DNA of 64,000 nucleotides. Source: Eledone cirrhosa (taxonomy: Eukaryota). The stretch is from NCBI GenBank assembly GCA_964016885.1, contig OZ024740.1, positions 256,432,001-256,496,000 on the forward strand. Direction: 5' to 3'. The notes under the pieces were generated by a model. The model was not told where the DNA came from, made no database searches, and saw only the letters and a list, made by a program, of their open reading frames with translations. This document shows, piece after piece, positions 1 through 63,945 of this stretch. Numbering within the stretch: position 1 is the first letter of the stretch; each line of letters begins with the position of its first letter. The translations under genes and the position numbers were made by a program.

Positions 1-1405
1 GATGATGGTGGTGATTGTGGTGGTGATGGTGGTGATTGTGGTGGTGATGGTGGTGATTGTGGTGGTGATGATGGTGGTGATTGTGGTGATGATGGTGGTG
101 ATTATGGTGGTGATGGTGGTGATTGTGGTGGTGATGGTGGTGATTGTGGTGGTGATGATGGTGGTGATTGTGTTGATGATGGTGGTGATTGTGGTGGTGA
201 TGGTGGTGATTGTGGTGGTGATGATGGTGGTGATTGTGGTGATGATGGTGGTGATTATGGTGGTGATGGTGGTGATTGTGGTGGTGATGGTGGTGATTGT
301 GGTGGTGATGATGGTGGTGATTGTGGTGATGATGATGGTGGTGATTGTGGTGATGATGGTGGTGGTGATTGTGGTGGTGATGATGGTGGTGATTGTGGTG
401 GTGATGGTGGTGGTGATTGTGGTGGTGATGATGGTGGTGATTGTGGTGGTGATGGTGGTGGTGATTGTGGTGGTGATGATGGTGGTGATTGTGGTGGTGA
501 TGGTGGTGGTGATTGTGGTGATGATGATGGTGGTGATTGTGGTGATGATGGTGGTGATTATGGTGGTGATGGTGGTGGTGATTGTGGTGATGATGATGGT
601 GGTGATTGTGGTGATGGTGGTGGTGATTATGGTGGTGATGGTGGTGGTGATTGTGGTGATGATGATGGTGGTGATTGTGTTGATGATGGTGGTGATTGTG
701 GTGGTGATGGTGGTGATTGTGGTGGTGATGGTGGTGATTGTGGTGGTGATGATGGTGGTGATTGTGGTGATGATGATGGTGGTGATTGTGGTGATGATGG
801 TGGTGGTGATTGTGGTGGTGATGATGGTGGTGATTGTGGTGGTGATGGTGGTGGTGATTGTGGTGGTGATGATGGTGGTGATTGTGGTGGTGATGGTGGT
901 GGTGATTGTGGTGGTGATGATGGTGGTGATTGTGGTGGTGATGATGGTGGTGATTGTGGTGATGATGATGGTGATTGTGGTGGTGATGATGGTGGTGATC
1001 GTGGTGATGATGGTGGTGGTGATTGTGGTGGTGATGGTGGTGGTGATTGTGGTGGTGATGATGGTGGTGATTGTGGTGATGATGATGGTGATTGTGGTGG
1101 TGATGATGGTGGTGATCGTGGTGATGATGGTGGTGGTGATTGTGGTGGTGATGGTGGTGGTGATTGTGGTGGTGATGATGGTGGTGATCGTGGTGATGAT
1201 GGTGGTGGTGATTGTGGTGGTGATGATGGTGATTGTGGTGGTGATGATGATGGTGGTGATTGTGGTGATGATGGTGGTGGTGATTGTGGTGGTGGTGATG
1301 ATGGTGGTGATTGTGGTGGTGATGGTGGTGGTGATTGTGGTGGTGATGGTGGTGGTGATTGTGGTGGTGATGATGGTGGTGATTGTGGTGGTGATGATGG
1401 TGGTG
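1..1405. repeat. Degenerate GGT/GAT trinucleotide minisatellite punctuated by GATTGT
   Basis: Continuous units of about 21-27 bp such as GGTGGTGATGATGGTGGTGATTGT. The V/M/I and SPPQ ORFs are by-products of the repeat. Confidence 0.9.
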
Positions 1406-16070: not shown

Positions 16071-17117
16071 AACGGAAAAAATGAAACGAAATTTCAATTC
16101 TCACTCTTAGTACGGCTGTTACTTAAATATAAGTATGCATACGCGAATTAAGGCGTACAGTGTCTAGCAACCATCGTTGCTCATTTGTTCAACACTGACA
16201 AATGAACGCTGTACTAGTTACAAGCTTATTCGCTATCGTCAGCAACGTATACCTTCCTGCCAGATAATTGAACGTCTGAAAGTATATACTTTCCTTATGC
16301 ATATTAACGGCTGAGCACCCTAATTTGCATATCGAGTGAGTTAATCGGCCGGGCGCACCGAAAACGATAAACGGAAAAAAATGAAACGAAATTTCATTTC
16401 TCACTCTTAGCACGGCTGTTACTTAAATATAAGTATGTATACGTACATACATATATGTATACAGACGTACAGTAGTATGTATATATATATATATATATAT
16501 ATACATACATGCACACATATATATATATATGTACGTATGGATTCACTGAACAATTATTATAATGCTCGGTGTGTTTGCAAACAAACATCCCGAATTAAGT
16601 CGTACAGTGTCTAGCAACCATCGTTGCTCATTTGTTCAACACTGACAAAGGAACGCTGTACTAGTTTCAAGCTTATTAGCTACCGTCAGCAACGTTTACT
16701 TTCCTGCCAGATGATTGAACGTCTGAAAGTATATACTTTCCTTATGCATATTAACAGCTGATTAACTCACTCGATATGCAAATTAGGCTGCTCAGCCGTT
16801 AATATGCATAAGGAAAGTATATACTTTCAGACGTTCAATCATCTGGCAGGAAGGTATACGTTGCTGACGATAGCTAATAAACTTGAAACTAGTACAGCGT
16901 TCCTTTGTCACTGTTGAACAAATGAGCAACGATGATTGCTAGACACTGTACGGCTTAATTCAGGATGTTTGTTTACAAACACACCGAGCATTATAATAAA
17001 TGTGCGGTGAATCCATACGTACATATATATATATGTTTGTGCATGTATGTATATATATATATATATATATACATACTACTGTACGTCTGTATACATATAT
17101 GTATGTACGTATACATA

Positions 17118-21167: not shown

Positions 21168-21954
21168 GTATGTACGTCCGTATGTATATATACATACGCA
21201 CGTACATAAATAAATACACAGACGCACACATATACACACACATAATCGCACTCACACATACACACACACATAGACACACATATATTGATATATTCATGCC
21301 AGTGTGTGTATGGATATCTGAATGTGTATACGTATTTGAGAAATTTAGCACTGATTGACTGCCGACTATACCTTTGTGGGACACGCTCTAGTAGCTCCCT
21401 TTGACCATTGTCCAAGCTAATGGTGGCGACAAGCTTGACCAGTTGACACAGTGATTGTAAAAGTACTGGCTAGACAGGGCAGCCAATTTTGGCTCCTTGT
21501 TTAAATAGTCTAAACGGCATTACCGTCAACACTGTTATCTCCACCACCAACACCAGCAACAATGGCAACACTACCACCATCAACAACATCACCAACACCA
21601 CAAACAAACCGGCTTCACCATCACCATCAACATCATCATCAATGTCCACATCACCATCAACACCAGCTGTAATCTCAACACTGTCACCATCATCATCACT
21701 TCCAATCTGACCAAGAGCATCACCACCATTATCATCAGTACCACGAACGTCATCATCATAGACGACATCGCCAACATCATAACCACCCAAACCAGCACCC
21801 TCATTGCCTTCACGAGTCTTATACACGTTTATTACACATAAACATACATACACATATACACCGCTATTCTGAATTATGGTATGTTAGTGCTGCTATATAT
21901 ATATATAGAATAAGTAAAAGCGAAGTAGTTTCAGATGTTCAAGTCCTTTAATTA

Positions 21955-22138
21955 TAATTGTTTCTACTTTTGGCACAAGGCCATCAATTATCCAGTGCAT
22001 TACTGGTACTTTATTTTATCGACCCCGTAAGGATGAAATGCAAAGTTAACCTCGGCGGGATTTGAACTCAGACCGTAAAGGGACGTAACTATGCTGGAAA
22101 GCATAGCGTCCGACTCTTTACCGATACTGCCAATCCAC
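21955..22138 (-). mobile_element. SINE family 1 copy with TSD CAAGTCCTTT (21940-21949 / 22139-22148)
   Basis: Full-length copy with a flanking direct repeat. Confidence 0.9.
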
Positions 22139-22229
22139 CAAGTCCTTTTATAATAATGCTGTGATATATATTTCAATGACGACACTGGCCACACTGTTCC
22201 GTGTGCGAGTGTCGTGTCATCATCAGACA

Positions 22230-22303
22230 GCTGTCTGATGATGACACGACACTCGCACAAGGAACAGTGTGGCCAGTGTCGTCATTGAAATATATATCAC
22301 AGC
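22230..22303 (+). ncRNA. Type I hammerhead with extended stem II; mirror copy 22158-22231 (-)
   Basis: gctgt CTGATGA tgac-ac-gacact...agtgtc-gtca-tt GAAA tatata TC acagc. There is a 2-nt irregularity at the base of stem II. Confidence 0.7.
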
Positions 22304-22351
22304 ATTATTATTAAAGGACTTGAACATCTGAAACTACTTCGCTTTTCCGAA

Positions 22352-22888
22352 AATTATAGAGGCTGGGTTCTTAGAGAATTCCAGTAATAATCAGGAACTG
22401 ATTATACAGAGCAATTGCCGGTCCAGGAAAAATTATAAATTAGGATTAGTGCTCTGAAATAGCGATGTATACATGAATGTATGTATAGTATATTTGGCAA
22501 TATACCGTATGTTTAATTAAAAAAATTTTGAAGACCTTGCGCTATCATTTTTAAAGCAGTGAATATGTCACTTCTAATTTTTGCTGGACCGGCAATCGCT
22601 CTGTATAATCAGTTCCTGATTATTACTGGAATTCTATAAGAATCCAGCCTCTATAATTTTCGGCAAAGGCGGGGAGTACGATGCTCTGAGGTTCGCCAAC
22701 AGCGTGAAACAGAATCTCTCAGCTTCTCTCCCTTCTCTTGCCGAAAAAAGAAGTAAGTGACATAGGCACTACTTTAAAAATGATAGCGCAAGGTCTTCAA
22801 AATGTTTTTAATTAAACATACTGTATATTGCCAAATATACTATACATATATACATGTATACATCGCTATTTCAGAGCACCAATCCTAA
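22352..22888. mobile_element. Retrozyme-like family with 313-nt unit: partial tandem (-) plus inverted (+) unit with a degenerate HHR at about 22683-22724
   Basis: Homologous to 49068-49393. The core here reads CTGAGGT..GAAA. Confidence 0.75.
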
Positions 22889-31594: not shown

Positions 31595-33900
31595 AGTGGC
31601 AGGGCACTCAGTCGATGAGACGAGTTAGGTAGAAGTGGTTACACAACAGTTAGTTCACCATACCGAGAACAATTGCTTCACCTTAGCGGATCCTCAGCTC
31701 GGAATGGGCATGGTTATAGGAACAGTAAGGATAACCGTACGAACACGCATGCGCAGAAACCCGGTCACTTCACACTGGCAATACTAGACTGCGTGCGAGA
31801 GGTGTAAGGGATATAACTGCGAAAGTCCGAAACGTTTTTAGGTTGAAAATAAAATTACAAAGAATCAGGCCGAAGCCTTGTAGTTATGCAATAGGTGTTT
31901 GGCGACGTGTGGACAACGTGTGAAAAATTCATTTCTCGTGTTTAGGCAATCACTAGCGTAATCTCTTTAGAATAGTTATTCGTTCGTCAATACATAAGCC
32001 ACACGTCAGATTTCCCCCTGCGTATGGCTTGGACTTAGTGATGGCTTTCCATTGATGGAGTAGTCTATACTTGAGTCCTTGAGGGACCATACGTGGCTGT
32101 CGAGTTTCGTGGATGAACGTCTGTCCAGGTACCTGAAGTTAGATTGGTGGTTCGGGAAACGTTCCTTAAATCGACCTTCCGCCATGCCCACTGAGGATTT
32201 GACCTCCTGTGGTTCGTTTGGACGGTTGGAAGTGACTGGAGCTTCATAAATTACAGCTGGTGTGTTGCATTGCTGTTGAAGGGGGCAAGCTTCAGGCTTA
32301 CGGCAAGAACACCCTGGTGGGGTGTTGCTCCTAGGGCTGCTGGTGATGTAGGCCTTCATGTTCTTAGCGCAGGAGTATGCTAGTTTAACTGTGTGTCGGT
32401 TAAAGATGGAGCGGTATTTATGACCTATGGGAAAGTGTCTATCTAAGAGGGCTAGAAATTTTTTTCCTACATTGGTTTTAACGTTGAGTGAAAAGGGAGG
32501 AGAGAACCAGATAGTTTGTGTATTGTTGCGCTTACTTTTCTTAATGGTGTTGTTGCTAGTGGGAGAGTAGGTGATAGGTTGTGAGAAGCCGATGTAGCCA
32601 ACGCCGTGTTATAGTAGGGTGCCGCGCTGTCAAAGATAGCCTTATTAGAGGAGAGGTTTGAGATTCTAGTACTGATATTCTTAACAAAGTCTCTAAAAAC
32701 AGTGGGAGGGTGGCATGAGTCCTTGTGAATGTAATTGAGGTTCTCGTTTAGATTATGGAAGGGTCTGTCAGTGTGTGTGCGAAGGTCTAAATTAGTCTCT
32801 AAGAAATCTACGCTAGAGAAGTTGGTGGCTACTGTTATCCTAAGTCCTAACTCATTGAAGCTAGAAGCTAAGTCTTTTTTAAACCGGTCGAGGTCGTGAC
32901 CACTTTTATGGCTCGATAAAGTCAGCCCATCGTCGCGGTATATTCCCGTGTGGACATCCGGACATCTAACACGTAATATGTCTAAGATAAATAGGCCAAC
33001 CAAGTCACATACGTCAGCACTGTCAAACGATCCCATGGAGACGTCGAATAGGTCTGAAGTTGTAGACTTCTTTTCCCAGGCTACTCCGTCGTTGAAGAGG
33101 AGGGTTTTCCGGCAGTGAGCGATGATTTCCCTGTCTAAACCAGCGACGGTGGTAGCGAAGTCCAACGCTTTGTTAACAGGGTCTCTGAGATCGATGGGTA
33201 AATATCGACAATGTCAAACTGTGTGAACTTCACTTTTTTGGATTTTAAGTAGTTAAACCACTTAATTACGGAGTTGCTGTTCTCCCACTGAAACAGGTTG
33301 GACTTGGTCCTAATGGCCTTAAATATGTTTCTAAGTATGGCCTTACTGACTAGTCCCATATCTGTGCGTGCCGGGTTTATTAGTCTACATGTGGGGTTAG
33401 AAGTGAAGTCTACCTTGTGATCTTTCAGGGTGAGGAACGTCTCTCGCTTAGCTAGATATTGTAGCATCTTATCTACCTTAAGCTCGGTGGAAAGTTCTTT
33501 GGCTTCTGTATTAATGTCGTGGTAGGCCATAGGGTTAGGTTTCTTATATTTAGAAGTAATAGCGTTATGGGCCAGGTGGCGGAAAGTGGTGTTGACGACT
33601 TCGTAAATATTATTAGTTTTGTCGGAAAGAACGAAGGTGTTATTAGAAGACCTAAATTTCTTAATATCATTTCTGAGTTTAGTTTGAAAGGTGTTAGGGT
33701 GTTTGCGAAAGGAAATGTTAGCGACTACGTCAAGAAGGTCCGTCTCGAAAGGAGCAAGTTCAGTTACCGTAGGAGGGTAGGCTCTCAATTTCAGGTTGAA
33801 GGTGTTGTTGGTGCCTGTAATTTTGCCGTTAAAATCTAGGGTTCGCTATCTTAAGCGTCTGACGACATCTTCCGCTTTTTGTAGGAGGAGCTTTTAGTAA
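31595..33900 (-). mobile_element. Penelope-like element (Naiad-type), RT + GIY-YIG, frameshifted
   Basis: FLTLKDHK..CRLINPA, QFDIVDIYPSI, MGSFDSADVCDLVG, IYRDDGL, YIHKDSCHPP, CSCRKPEACPLQQQC (CxCx5Cx5C), VIYEA..VGMAEGRFKER and CGLC. Confidence 0.93.
31658..31707 (-). ncRNA. Hammerhead at the 3' end of the PLE, on the sense strand
   Basis: ccatt ccgag CTGAGGA t-cc-gctaa-gg-t GAAG caattg TT ctcgg tatgg. Stem I pairs 9 of 10 positions; A15.1 is replaced by G. Confidence 0.7.
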
Positions 33901-37001: not shown

Positions 37002-37232
37002 TTTAAAATAAATTGAAGAGAAAATCAACAGGTGTTTTTATTGGCAGTATGACCATCTCAAAGTATTACAATACTTGTTTCACCACACGTTTTCAGATAA
37101 GAAATCTTGCAAAACGAATTGAAAAACGAAGTATATATATATATATATATATATTATTAGGGTAAACATTGATGCAATTCAATTCAAGCACTTAACGTAC
37201 TTTTTCCACATAGGAGTGAAGGAGTAAATATC

Positions 37233-38321
37233 GAATAAGGAAAAGCGAAGTAGTTTCAGATATTCAAGTCCTTTAATAATAATGGTGTGATATATATTTC
37301 AATGACGACACTGGCCACACTGTTCTGTGTGCGAGTGTCGTATCATCATCAGACAGCTTGTTACATAATAAGGTTGTTTCCGAGGCTATCCAAATTGTTT
37401 TTGCATTTATTCACTATTGGTTCTGTTCTTTTCTTTTCTTTTGTGTACTTTATGTCTGTTTTTCTTTGATTCTGTTCCATGTGATGGAAATTATGACCGT
37501 GTAACAGATTGATTAATGCCTTGAACCATGTGGTTTGCCCTCCGTTATAATGTACGGCACTGTCGTTCAATATGTGGATAGAGTAACTGTAACACTAGAA
37601 TCCCTCCCAGAACTTATTACTTAAACTTCTCTCTCCATATTATTTACTCACTTCAATCTATATTTTTACTCAATCCGAATTATCACTTTGAAAAAAAAAA
37701 AATCTTTGAATTTAGAATTTTTTAATTTTTAATTGTTTAATTTATAATCTCTGATATTTGATTTAGGATTTTAACTTTTATTTTTAATTTTTATTTCCAA
37801 CTCTCATTCTTAACTTACAATGTAAAACCATAGTACCTAGAATTAAGTTTATTTTCCCTTATGAGTTGATGGTCAGTCTTACTGTCAACGCTTAGTGAAA
37901 GGCAGTATTATGACCTATAAAAACTAACACCCTCCCATCCCCTCTGGCTTTCGGCTGACTGCCACAGTAGTGATGGGTAGCAGTAAACTTTGGCAGGGCA
38001 TAGGTGGGCCACTGACAGCGAATTTCATTGAAATCTGCGGTGCTAATGGTCAACTTCCTTCGGACATGCGCTTGCGCAGACCGGTGGGGGTGAATTTGTA
38101 CTCACAAGGGAACGGATGAAAAACCCAAAAGCACGAACTTCATCCGTTCCCATGTCGATTCAATTTGGGTTGCCTCGGAAACAACCTTATTATGTAACAA
38201 GCTGTCTGATGATGACACGACACTCGCACACAGAACAGTGTGGCCAGTGTCGTCATTGAAATATATATCACAGCATTATTATTAAAGGACTTGAACATCT
38301 GAAACTACTTCGCTTTTCCTT

Positions 38322-38326
<5 letters not shown>
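37233..38326. mobile_element. Element with inverted arms of about 165 bp, each carrying an HHR (37284-37357 -, 38201-38274 +), around about 770 bp of non-coding DNA
   Basis: The arms are reverse complements, belong to the same family as 21905-22348, and are flanked by (TA)n. Confidence 0.82.
38201..38274 (+). ncRNA. Type I hammerhead with extended stem II
   Basis: gctgt CTGATGA [45-nt hairpin] GAAA tatata TC acagc. Confidence 0.7.
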
Positions 38327-38362
<36 letters not shown>

Positions 38363-38539: not shown

Positions 38540-38747
38540 TATACATATACACATACATATATATAAAACACCTGCTTGAGAAACACAACCAGGATTGAGC
38601 AATCAATACATCTCCTACGTAACACAAACTTTGTTCTTATTATATATATATATATATATATATACGTTATTCCGGGTTGAATCGGAGGTAACCACAGTAA
38701 GTAAGGTACTCAATACATTGCAGAGTATAAAAGTTTTAATATAGATG

Positions 38748-38798
38748 AGATTCTACAGGACTAGAACTGTTTCATTCTTTAGAAATCATCAGGAATCT
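38748..38798 (-). ncRNA. Type I hammerhead in inverted pLTR (38665-38812)
   Basis: agattc CTGATGA tttc-taaa-gaat GAAA cag-ttctagtc-ctg TA gaatct. Confidence 0.8.
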
Positions 38799-38812
38799 GG
38801 GTATCAAAAAAT

Positions 38813-39548
38813 ATGTTTAATGCATCTGCCTCCTACTACAATGACGCCCTCGCCCGTGGCGGATTTAAAGATAAGATAACTTACCTAGAAACCACCGGAA
38901 GATTGCAGAGGAGGAATAGACATAGGCAGATTAGCTGGTACAACCCTCCCTTCAATAGAGAGGTATCTACTCCGATAGCTAGGATTTTCTTCACTTTGCT
39001 GAAATTACACTTCCCCATACAACATAGGTACCACACCATCTTTAATAAGAACACAATAAGACTGTCTTACTCCACCACACCTAACCTAGCTAGGAATATA
39101 GCCAACCACAATTCTAAAAAATTAAATAGGCCAACCACCTCCGAACCCAATCCCCGGACTGGGGCTCTATGTAATTGCCTAAATAAGGAAGCATGCCCAC
39201 TTGAAAACAAATGCCTCACAAATGATATCGTATACAAATGCGATGTCATCTCAGGCACCGAGGATTGCAAAAAAACTTACATCGGCATGACCTCGAACAA
39301 CTTTAAGACCCGTTGGTATGCCCATACCCACTCCTTCAGAAGACCGGACAAATCAAATCAGACAACACTCGCCTCCTACGTTTGGGACCTCAAAAGGAAC
39401 TCCACCCCCTTCACGCTTAAACGGAATATACTCCAGAAAGCGCGCTCTTACAACGGAGGACACAAGGGCTGCGACCTTTGTATTTCAGAGAGCTACGAAA
39501 TTTTATTCGCCAAGGGCCCGCTACTGAACAAACTCTCTGAACACATTT
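38813..39548 (+). mobile_element. 5'-truncated Naiad-type PLE with an uninterrupted thumb + GIY-YIG frame
   Basis: WYNPPFN, IFNKNTIRLSYST, CNCLNKEACPLENKC, IVYKC..TYIGMT..FKTRWYAH, CDLCISE and LLNK. Confidence 0.92.
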
Positions 39549-40884
39549 AGTTTACAAATGCTGTTTTCGACGGACCAACTCCTAAACAAGAAAGATGAAC
39601 TGGTTACTGCATGTAAACATAGATTGCGTAGGACTTACCTCGCCCTCAAACCCCATAATGACCCGGGGGGGTAGACTAGGGCTATAACACCCCACTTGCC
39701 GATTTTGCAATGGGTAACCCCTGCTTGCCAAGGAAGACGTAAGATCTTCTTTGTATTCTTTTATCGCTTCCTTTATTTCCTTCCCCCCTCTCTCCTTAGT
39801 CCTTCTACCCCAGCTCTTCTCCTTTGTCGGCGTCTTTTCTCGCCCACCCGAGGCTACCCTTTGGCCCCTTGTAGCCTTAGTACCCCCACCCCCTCCCCTA
39901 GTCTATGCTAGATTTGGCGGACTCCGCCCTTTATAGCAGTTGGCTTAGACCCCGGATACTTGCCCCCTTTTTCCGACCGCTCCCACTATTCTCTGTGCCC
40001 TCTATATTTCTTAGTGGCACTTATGCCTTATTTTTTCGTTTCAGTATTTCTTTCTTCGCTTTTCTTTTGGGCGGGGCGGATTCTGAATTTATTTTTCCGT
40101 ATTCTACCTTTATTTCGTGCGAACTTTCATGTAGCTTGTTTTAGATCTTTTAGAGTTAGCATTAGTATATATTTTTCTCGGGACTCAGAATTATTATCTC
40201 GTACAAGTTCACTTTGCTGCACTGGGTGGTTGCTGGCATTGTGCCCGGGATGGAAACCTTTATTGTTTATTTCGTGGTAGTCTCTTTAGTATTTTGGCCC
40301 CTTTTGTTGACCCGTCACCGTATCATTTACGTACTTATACCTCTTAAAAGGGTCCTTGCCTTATCCGTCCCACCTAGTTCTTTTACTTATTTCGTTATTT
40401 CTTTATTTCTTTCTTTACTTCTTTCTTTCTTTATTTTATTCTAGCCTAACAATAGCTAGAGACCTAGGTCGTAGAATTTAATTTACTTTACTTTTTTCTT
40501 TATACTTATTTGCTTTTCTTCACTCTCAGTATTTTTCTTTCCTATATATTTCTACCCCCCATTGTTCTACCTACCGTTCCGACTTCCTCCCCCTCCCCCT
40601 CCCCTGTATCTTCTTTGACCTCATGCCCAGCTGTAGCTGGCACTACCAACGCTTGATTGGGTCTACTCCACCCCCTCCCCTCTTTCTCCTACTGGCAGGT
40701 TTAGCCACCATCTCCCCTACTAATTTGCAACCACAGAATTACTACTGATTTTTGACAATCACTTTGACCATATATGGAATTACCCCTTGAGAAGATCGGC
40801 TATTTAAATACCAGGATAATTTTCATTTAGTCCAGAATTAGCCGTCGAAACGGCTTGAGCTCAGCTGTCGGGGTCTTACTGGTT

Positions 40885-41246: not shown

Positions 41247-41808
41247 ATATAGATATATTTATATATGTGTGTGTGTTTTTATGTGTGTATATGTGTATGT
41301 GTATGTGTGTTTATGGTTGCGCGCGAGTGTGTGAGTGAGTGTGTGTTTTTTTTGTGAATGTGTCTGTTGATTTTTGGCATATAGTTGATTAGTTTAAGAG
41401 AAGTTCGAAGATAATTGTAAGATATGCACTCAGTATTTTGAATCTGTCTACAGAATTCTCTAAACCTTTGTCACTTAGTAGAACCTTAATGAATTTAGCT
41501 TTTAAAGAATCTCCCTTTCCTTTAATTCTATCTACCATGATTGACCCCCCACTGATCTTATAGACATCTGTTAGCTTAAGAGAAACTTAATGACAAGGAA
41601 TGGTATGCCATCCGGAACCTGTTTATAGAATTATGTCTGCCTTTGTTACTCTAAAAACAAAAATTAATAAAAATAAACTATAGCTTTGTAGAATTAGCTT
41701 TTAATGAATTCCCTTTTCTATCAACCAATGACCTACACCCATCCCACTCCCCACCCTCTCCTACCACTTGTAGAGACCTATAAATACCATATTTATTTTT
41801 TGATACCC

Positions 41809-41859
41809 AGATTCCTGATGATTTCTAAAGAATGAAACAGTTCTAGTCCTGTAGAATCT
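41809..41859 (+). ncRNA. Type I hammerhead, identical to the reverse complement of 38748-38798
   Basis: agattc CTGATGA tttctaaagaat GAAA cagttctagtcctg TA gaatct. Confidence 0.8.
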
Positions 41860-41871
41860 CATCTATATTAA

Positions 41872-41904
<33 letters not shown>

Positions 41905-48915: not shown

Positions 48916-49067
48916 TAGAGGTGGTGGGGAACTAGTGTGTGGGGAGACTCACCAAGGGAAATATTGAATTGAGTGGTGGTTAAGTGGTCAACATATATAT
49001 AAGTGTGTGTGTGTATGTATATATATATATATATGTGTGTGTGTGTATAAACTATATATATATATAT

Positions 49068-49393
49068 TAGGATTGGCGCTCTGAAATAGCGATGTATACA
49101 TGAATGTATATATAGCATATTTGGCAATATAGTGTATGTTTAATTAAAAACATTTTGAAGACCTTGCGCTATTATTTTTAAGTAGTGACCGTGTCACTTC
49201 TTTTTTCAGCAAAAGAAGGGAGATAAGCTGACAGATCTGTTTCACACTGCTGGTGTTCATCAGAGCCTAGCACTCGCCGACCTTTGCCAACAATTATAGA
49301 GACTGGATTCTTATAGAATTCCAGTAATAATCAGGAACTGATTATACAGAGCGATTGCCGGTCCAACAAAAATTGAAAATTAGGATTGGTGCT
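49068..49393 (-). mobile_element. Retrozyme-like monomer (313-nt period) with an intact HHR
   Basis: TAGGATTGG(C/T)GCT recurs at 49068 and 49381. Homologous to 22352-22888. Confidence 0.8.
49225..49268 (-). ncRNA. Canonical type I hammerhead ribozyme
   Basis: aggct CTGATGA acac-cagca-gtgt GAAA cagatctg TC agctt, with a GUC site. Confidence 0.87.
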
Positions 49394-49429
49394 TATTAGG
49401 ATTTTAATCTTCACATTTATTATTATTAC

Positions 49430-49599: not shown

Positions 49600-52245
<2,646 letters not shown>

Positions 52246-63337: not shown

Positions 63338-63525
63338 AGATCAAAAGATGGTTAAAGGAGTTCAATGTATTTTATTATGCGCATTTCAAAAACAAACATC
63401 ATCATGCAATAATATTTGTGTTTTCATCAGATAAAACAGGAGAACATGATATGAAGGCTACATATATATATATATATAGATGAGATTCTGCAGGACTAGA
63501 ACTGCTTCAATATTTAGAAATCATC

Positions 63526-63715: not shown

Positions 63716-63768
63716 GAGATTCCTGATGATTTCTAAAGAATGAAACAGTTCTAGTCCTGTAGAATCTC
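63716..63768 (+). ncRNA. Type I hammerhead (same family as 41809-41859)
   Basis: gagattc CTGATGA tttctaaagaat GAAA cagttctagtcctg TA gaatctc, with a 7-bp stem I. Confidence 0.82.
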
Positions 63769-63826
63769 ATCTATATTAAAACTTTTATACTCTGCAATGT
63801 ATTGAGTACCTTAATAACGAAATAAC

Positions 63827-63945
<119 letters not shown>

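What the first reader, a model, noticed from the sequence alone, without database searches (positions are those of the whole stretch)
49068..49393. Best test candidate: 313-nt monomer with a textbook hammerhead and a head-to-tail junction
The HHR is fully canonical (GUC site, predicted cut between 49230 and 49229 on the minus strand) and lies inside a unit whose terminal sequence repeats at a 313-nt period. The same junction appears at about 22440 in a differently permuted copy. Circular permutation between copies is expected if the template is a circular or multimeric RNA.
Basis: partly seen in the sequence, partly recalled or inferred. Interest (0 to 1): 0.75.

Follow-up and report, generated by a model that had tools for sequence, protein, structure and literature searches.

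The report
Hammerhead retrozyme copy in animal microsatellite
A 313-base non-coding repeat carrying a self-cutting hammerhead RNA motif is one copy of an abundant animal mobile-element family of a known kind (a retrozyme that appears to be spread by Penelope-like retrotransposons); this single copy could not make an RNA circle on its own, and neither cutting nor circles have been shown.

Summary
A type I hammerhead with an intact core lies on the minus strand (GUC, cut 49230|49229), inside a unit whose 14-nt end repeats at 313 nt. The head-to-tail junction recurs at 22434-22453 and in 4 of 4 runs laid, from three organisms. The family is abundant: 4,581 contigs in one run.

The interpretation needs three corrections.
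1. The window's two full copies are not permuted. Both end at CCAAUCCUAA|(TA)n, about 161 nt after the cut, and start within 20 nt of each other. The 'permuted copy' is the inverted 5' piece of one composite insertion, a Penelope-type footprint.
2. This copy has one ribozyme, so it cannot release a circle. No two-ribozyme dimer was seen.
3. The ribozyme is not fully textbook: A10.1-U11.1 replaces G-C, helix III is a palindrome, and folding favours a double hammerhead (-60.4 against -54.2 kcal/mol). A monomer assay may therefore fail falsely.

Verdict: a new family of metazoan non-LTR retrozyme, most likely copied by a Penelope-like reverse transcriptase that starts at a fixed internal site. 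Whether the template is a circle or an uncut multimer is open. No RNA data were available.

The parts
49068..49393 (-). Copy A1: one full 313-nt unit plus a 14-nt terminal redundancy; non-coding; 3' end at 49068-49066, abutting (TA)n
   Evidence: (six-frame translation shows stops in every frame)
49207..49290 (-). Type I hammerhead with extended helix I: 5' strand 49290-49264, core 49263-49257, helix II 49256-49244, GAAA 49243-49240, palindromic helix III 49240-49231, C17 49230, 3' strand 49229-49207
49229..49230 (-). Predicted self-cleavage site (GUC|A), 151 nt after the unit start and 161-163 nt before the 3' end
   Evidence: cleavage not shown
49381..49393 (-). Repeat of the unit's 3' end joined to the unit's start (head-to-tail junction; a miniature partial tandem)
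49394..49403 (-). A further 10-nt copy of the unit's 3' end just upstream of A1 (second tiny truncated copy or target duplication; unresolved)
48993..49067 (.). (TA)n/(TG)n microsatellite tract: the insertion target at the 3' end
22576..22888 (+). Copy A2: full unit, same 3' end at (TA)n, starts 6 nt after the junction; ribozyme degenerate (A9 replaced by U, C-C at the base of helix III)
22342..22582 (-). Piece A3: inverted 5' segment of the A2 insertion; about 240 nt spanning the junction (22434-22453); no ribozyme; in sense it starts 23-28 nt after the cut site

Best explanation
A dispersed copy of a non-autonomous, hammerhead-bearing retroelement (metazoan non-LTR retrozyme) that borrows the enzymes of Penelope-like elements (PLEs). 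Proposed cycle: (1, inferred) head-to-tail copies elsewhere in the genome are transcribed as multimers. (2, predicted) Neighbouring ribozymes pair through their palindromic helix III into a double hammerhead and cut at GUC; monomers may then be ligated into circles of about 313 nt. (3, inferred from the DNA footprint) A PLE GIY-YIG endonuclease nicks (TA)n DNA, and its reverse transcriptase starts at a fixed internal site about 161 nt downstream of the cut. It copies through the ribozyme and stops near the junction, giving one unit plus or minus a few bases (A1: +14, A2: -6), sometimes with an inverted 5' piece (A3). Shown: the sequence anatomy, junction read-through, high copy number, fixed 3' end, (TA)n target. 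Not shown: transcription, cleavage, circles, the identity of the partner PLE, and whether the template is a circle or an uncut linear multimer.
For: Intact core and helix layout 6/4/2 bp with a palindromic loop 3, the 'canonical' metazoan type I layout of PMC4209133. No long ORF. 4,581 contigs of run X1 and 7,451 of 12.47 million reads of X7 lay on the 354-nt stretch. The 313-nt joint is listed in 4 of 4 runs; in X1, 42 contigs read on head-to-tail at 49393 and 24 show a variant junction at 49374. Both full copies end at the same base against (TA)n; only 5.8% of window positions lie within 10 nt of a (TA)>=4 tract. Partial tandems, an adjacent inverted 5'-truncated copy and microsatellite targets are PLE hallmarks (PMC8557442 passages). 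A purified PLE protein nicks AT-rich DNA and starts reverse transcription at fixed internal sites downstream of the ribozyme on unprocessed RNA (PMC11167929). PLE-type RT/GIY-YIG ORF fragments lie in the window. The predicted circular monomer is well folded: -73.4 kcal/mol, z -3.7, 0 of 100 shuffles as low. A1 and A2 differ by a two-sided change in helix II (A-U to G-C).
Against: No tandem with two complete ribozymes was seen: none in the window, and no listed contig spans the whole stretch. No sequence link to an autonomous PLE was found in the window (BLAST of the unit hits only A1-A3). The fixed 3' end rests on 2 of 2 full copies only. The single motif is predicted to misfold by 5 kcal/mol, and A2's core is broken. 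In Xenopus only 1 of 9 retrozyme dimers tested cleaved (bioRxiv 2026.07.22.740005). Summed depth over the ribozyme is 16- to 300-fold lower than over its flanks in X1, so many copies carry a diverged ribozyme or none.
Confidence: 0.8

Rival explanations
1. It is the pseudo-LTR or 3' remnant of an autonomous Penelope-like element, and 313 nt is only the length of a truncated piece.
For: Same target and inversion footprint as PLEs. Two other hammerhead families in the window look like such remnants, one of them inverted against a GIY-YIG ORF fragment at 38783-39550.
Against: After its 3' end the unit loops back to its own start in 4 of 4 runs. No ORF-like continuation is among the loose ends shown (401 further rows were not shown). 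Its ribozyme has 6-bp/4-bp helices I/II with no bulge after A9, unlike the PLE minimal type (PMC4209133).
Confidence: 0.1
2. One reading: genomic copies are randomly permuted images of a 313-nt circular RNA, and this locus is a direct source of the circle.
For: Unit length plus 14 nt, and A3 crossing the junction, show a template longer than one linear unit. Related retrozymes do make circles in coral, mussel and axolotl (PMC7229834).
Against: A1 and A2 have the same ends. A3 is an inversion within one insertion. A1 has only one ribozyme. A2 and A3 differ at 13 of 223 shared positions against 3 of 133 between the arms of the older neighbouring palindrome, which leans towards two different units rather than one circle but is not significant (Fisher p 0.18).
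Confidence: 0.07
3. A satellite or minisatellite unit spread at the DNA level, with a ribozyme that is now only a relic.
For: A2's core is mutated. The ribozyme region is the most diverged part of the unit: 73 of 93 columns identical between A1 and A2, against 80 of 82 upstream and 121 of 137 downstream.
Against: Dispersed single units with a fixed end at (TA)n and a 5' inversion are retrotransposition marks. The changes keep the helices paired. None of the 40 variant rows shown hits an invariant core base (88 further rows not shown).
Confidence: 0.03

Closest known systems
Metazoan non-LTR retrozymes (Cervera and de la Pena 2020, PMC7229834; Li, Clavereau and Pollet 2026, bioRxiv 10.64898/2026.07.22.740005)
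   Same: Non-coding 150-450-nt unit, one type I hammerhead, low GC, head-to-tail junctions, many copies, highly folded predicted circle, solo monomers alongside, PLEs in the same genome.
   Different: New sequence family. Only monomers and a junction are seen here, no two-ribozyme array. A10.1-U11.1 (U-U in a subfamily) replaces G-C. No clear long target-site duplication. Copies are anchored in (TA)n with a fixed 3' end and a 5' inversion, a footprint not described in the sections I read.
Penelope-like elements and their pLTR hammerheads (PMC4209133; PMC8557442; PAc biochemistry, PMC11167929)
   Same: Type I hammerhead upstream of a fixed 3' end, partial tandem, inverted 5'-truncated neighbour, AT-rich/microsatellite target.
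   Different: No RT/GIY-YIG ORF. The ribozyme is of the canonical rather than the minimal layout. The distance from cut to 3' end is about 161 nt, against 85-92 nt in PAc (computed from the paper's +26 and +111 to +118).
Amphibian satellite-2 / axolotl retrozyme hammerheads that act as dimers (PMC7229834 passages)
   Same: Short palindromic helix III, predicted double-hammerhead activity; a U-U at the base of helix II occurs in a subfamily here as in HHR_Amex2.
   Different: Helix III has two pairs plus a tetraloop, like invertebrate motifs, some of which cleave well as monomers; sequence relatedness was not tested.

Membership tests
Type I hammerhead ribozyme | Core CUGANGA / GAAA / NUH around three helices, helix I open | tested here: met
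Type I hammerhead ribozyme | G10.1-C11.1 closing pair of helix II | tested here: not met
   A-U in A1; U at 10.1 in about 38% of covering depth in X1. A typical, not an invariant, feature (PMC4209133)
Type I hammerhead ribozyme | Match to an Rfam hammerhead model | tested here: not met
   0 hits at gathering score; no hammerhead among 9 hits at E<=10
Type I hammerhead ribozyme | Self-cleavage at NUH | not testable with these tools
   Folding only: monomer misfold -27.1 against active -22.1; the dimer's minimum-energy fold is the double hammerhead, -60.4
Non-LTR retrozyme | Non-coding unit of about 150-450 nt, GC under 50%, with a type I hammerhead; no LTR/PBS/PPT | tested here: met
   313 nt, stops in all six frames, AT-rich; no long terminal repeats flank the unit
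Non-LTR retrozyme | Head-to-tail organisation | tested here: met
   Junction at 22434-22453; joint 49390->49078 in 4 of 4 runs; 42 contigs read through in X1
Non-LTR retrozyme | [quoted passage not shown] 2026) | tested here: inconclusive
   Not met by this locus or elsewhere in the window; short contigs cannot show it; no genome held
Non-LTR retrozyme | Many genomic copies | tested here: met
   4,581 contigs in X1, 2,904 of them under 95% alike; not a copy count
Non-LTR retrozyme | Expressed as linear and circular monomer RNA | not testable with these tools
   No RNA run was offered
Autonomous Penelope-like element | RT + GIY-YIG ORF between pLTRs | tested here: not met
   No ORF in or joined to A1-A3; the unit returns to its own start
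PLE-mobilised insertion | Fixed 3' end downstream of the hammerhead, AT-rich/microsatellite target, partial tandem, inverted 5' piece | tested here: met
   2 of 2 full copies share the end at (TA)n; a 14-nt tandem in A1; an inversion in A2/A3. Small sample
PLE-mobilised insertion | Homology of the unit to the pLTR of a resident autonomous PLE | tested here: inconclusive
   None within the 64-kb window; the rest of the genome was not available

The most novel reading that the evidence does not exclude
The insertions record reverse transcription of a circular RNA. A PLE enzyme starts at one fixed internal site, runs once round a 313-nt circle through the re-ligated cut, and stops when it returns to its start. 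This would explain why both full copies are one unit long to within -6/+14 nt and why sequence on both sides of the cut is equally abundant. A family with thousands of dispersed copies would then allow a genome-only test of the untested step of the retrozyme model, namely that circles are the transposition template.
Probability: 0.3. Interest if true: 0.6.

Novelty: new member of a known kind. Interest (0 to 1): 0.3.

Why it matters
As a ribozyme repeat it is ordinary: such units are known from many animal phyla. Its use is as a test case. Retrozymes are proposed to move by borrowing Penelope-like enzymes and by using circular RNA as template, but the papers read here leave that mechanism open. 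This family shows the PLE insertion footprint directly. Its 5' ends, counted genome-wide, should pile at the junction if a circle is copied once, or at the cut site if a cleaved linear RNA is copied. If the host is a cephalopod (my recalled impression, not tested), I found no retrozyme report for that group in two searches of the open-access library.

Tried and rejected
Rfam, whole window at gathering score: 0 hits. Rfam, region at E<=10: 9 hits, microsatellite-driven or weak, none a hammerhead. Whole genome: none held, so no genome-wide count of copies or ends. Exact-pattern scans for relatives: 0 in metagenome contigs with two patterns, 0 in viral contigs. Sequencing runs: no RNA holder listed, which is no evidence on expression. 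X1 may be the sample behind the window. The read-end piles in X7 at 49317 and 49142 match EcoRI and MseI sites (49316; 49140/49144), and the one at 49374 probably a variant MseI site; I rejected them as library artefacts, not molecule ends. Most X7 reads over 49078-49164 belong to a sister family (2,694 reads diverge at 49164), so X7 depth was not used for family structure. The 14-nt repeat as a target-site duplication: rejected, because the same letters are internal at 22434-22453. A 38-codon ATG frame starting in the ribozyme core: rejected, because the core supplies the ATG and A2 lacks it. The A2-versus-A3 divergence test of 'one circle or several units' was not significant (p 0.18). Earlier-findings look-ups by sequence, by place and by a six-word query gave nothing.

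Full report
Setting. The window is AT-rich animal-type DNA full of (TA)n/(CA)n microsatellites, SINEs and broken LINE and Penelope-like ORFs. It looks cephalopod-like to me; that is recalled, not tested. No whole genome is held.

Observation. On the minus strand, 49290-49207 forms a type I hammerhead: core CUGAUGA (49263-49257), helix II of 4 bp with loop CAGCA, GAAA, helix III inside the 10-nt palindrome ACAGAUCUGU, GUC with C17 at 49230, and helix I of 6 bp plus a long interrupted extension. My scan found 10 type I motifs in the window and 1 in 20 shuffled windows altogether. Rfam does not see this one. The 14-nt end at 49068 recurs at 49381 with 13 of 14 matches. All six frames have stops.

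The ribozyme is less textbook than claimed. Pair 10.1-11.1 is A-U; PMC4209133 (parts 1-2 of 4 read) calls G-C typical. The 88-nt motif alone is predicted to misfold (-27.1 against -22.1 kcal/mol for the active fold). Two copies together have the double hammerhead as their minimum-energy fold (-60.4, against -54.2 for two misfolded monomers). These energies ignore tertiary contacts and Mg2+. The same paper describes this dimer behaviour for metazoan type I motifs with a short palindromic helix III, but coral and mussel motifs cleave as monomers (PMC7229834, sections 13-14), so monomer activity is not excluded.

The second locus. BLAST finds only three family pieces in the window. A2 (22576-22888, plus) is a full unit with a damaged core. 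A3 (22342-22582, minus) abuts it in inverted orientation, crosses the junction at 22434-22453 and lacks the ribozyme. A1 and A2 end at the same base, CCAAUCCUAA followed by (TA)n. A1 starts 14 nt before the junction and A2 6 nt after it. So the full copies are colinear, not permuted. A2 plus A3 is one insertion with an inverted 5' piece, placed at the end of another hammerhead element. A3's sense start lies 23-28 nt after the cut site, which fits a cleaved RNA end but is a single case. A2 and A3 differ at 13 of 223 shared positions, and the neighbouring palindrome's arms at 3 of 133 (p 0.18); this does not decide between one circle and several units.

Beyond the window. Of 9 runs listed (none on record as RNA) I laid 4. 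In X1, 4,581 contigs lay on the stretch, 2,904 of them under 95% alike. In X7, 7,451 of 12.47 million reads lay on it; X4 and X5, from two other organisms, gave 26 and 2 records. The joint 49390->49078 (313 back) is listed in all four runs. In X1, 42 contigs run on head-to-tail at 49393 and 24 show a variant junction at 49374 (period about 310). Summed depth in X1 peaks at similar values on both sides of the ribozyme (431,372 and 419,234) and falls to 1,315-26,135 over it. The tool warns that this is no copy number. Read with that caution, it suggests that copies usually contain both sides of the cut and that the ribozyme region varies strongly between subfamilies, as A1 against A2 also shows (73 of 93 columns identical, against 80 of 82 and 121 of 137 on either side). 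Variants shown inside the motif fall at N7, 10.1, loop 2, loop 3 and helix I. None of the 40 rows shown hits an invariant core base; 88 rows were not shown. No listed contig spans the whole unit, so arrays with two ribozymes were not seen. A sister family matches over 49078-49164 and has a junction-like upstream sequence.

Mechanism. A linear cut-to-cut monomer cannot give A1 in one pass, because the cut lies 151 nt from its start and about 161 nt from its end. The fixed end, (TA)n target, short partial tandem and inverted 5' piece match Penelope-like elements (PMC8557442, passages). A purified PLE protein nicks AT-rich DNA and starts reverse transcription at fixed internal sites downstream of its hammerhead, using unprocessed RNA (PMC11167929, parts 1-2 of 4). 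That explains constant ends without permutation, and it also means the DNA cannot by itself prove a circle. PLE-type ORF fragments are present: GIY-YIG at 50590-51021 (E 3.6e-7) and 38783-39547 (E 0.004, below the Pfam cut-off), while 3 of 5 fragments scanned had no relevant Pfam hit. Atlas look-alikes carry GIY-YIG, RVT_1 or HTH_animal in 17-45% of members. None of these fragments shares sequence with the unit. The modelled circular monomer folds well (-73.4 kcal/mol, z -3.7, 0 of 100 shuffles as low), as reported for retrozyme circles.

Known kind. Cervera and de la Pena 2020 (PMC7229834; passages and sections 13, 14, 17 read; supplement unreadable) define metazoan non-LTR retrozymes and propose PLEs as helpers. 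Li et al. 2026 (bioRxiv 10.64898/2026.07.22.740005; parts 1-3 of 5 read) link them to pLTRs, describe solo monomers, require two intact ribozymes for an 'active' element, and saw cleavage in 1 of 9 dimers tested. This locus is a solo monomer of a new family of that kind. Searches for 'hammerhead ribozyme'+'octopus' and 'retrozyme'+'cephalopod' listed no such report. An Octopus vulgaris repeat annotation has 0 occurrences of 'ribozyme' or 'retrozyme' in its main text (PMC13282606, passages). The library lacks most subscription papers, and the host is not established.

Verdict. A real feature, correctly located; a new member of a known kind. It is a fair ribozyme to assay as a dimer but not itself a source of circles. 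Interest 0.3. The boldest open reading, that unit-length copies record one lap round an RNA circle, has probability about 0.3 and is testable from the genome alone.

Noticed in passing
window 21908-22346, 37230-37358(-), 38200-38328(+): A second hammerhead family (long helix II, palindromic ATATAT helix III, PLE minimal type), with its 3' end about 59 nt after the cut; 2 of 3 uninterrupted ends abut (TA)n. 21908-22346 is an inverted pair centred at 22230 with a SINE inserted at about 21950-22139, and A3 joins its right arm through a short microhomology.
   Followed up: partly
window 38641-38813(-), 41794-41875(+), 63717-63828(+), 63474-63525(-): A third hammerhead family (GUA site, longer helix III) whose four copies end at (TA)n at different distances from the cut; one is inverted against a GIY-YIG ORF fragment at 38783-39550.
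   Followed up: partly
window 32006-33845(-), 38783-39550(+), 50590-51024(+): Broken Penelope-like RT/GIY-YIG ORFs; the last lies 1.2 kb from the finding, inside what appears to be a large inverted duplication (49596-50070 matches 52249-51759 at 96%).
   Followed up: partly
runs X4, X5, X7, against window 49078-49164: A sister family shares this 87-nt segment and a junction-like upstream sequence, then diverges; it is abundant in X7 (2,694 reads) and X4 (one 340-nt contig of depth 410). The shared segment may be the RT recognition element.
   Followed up: no
window 49207-49290 against 22658-22749: The ribozyme is the fastest-changing part of the unit, yet helices stay paired; PMC4209133 noted the same unexplained hypervariability in PLE hammerheads.
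   Followed up: partly
window 63430-63376(-), 25924-25809(-), 16864-16894(+): Three further single hammerhead-like matches from my scan, not examined; the last two may be chance.
   Followed up: no
window 1-1405: A 1.4-kb G/T-rich tandem array with 12/24-nt period.
   Followed up: no
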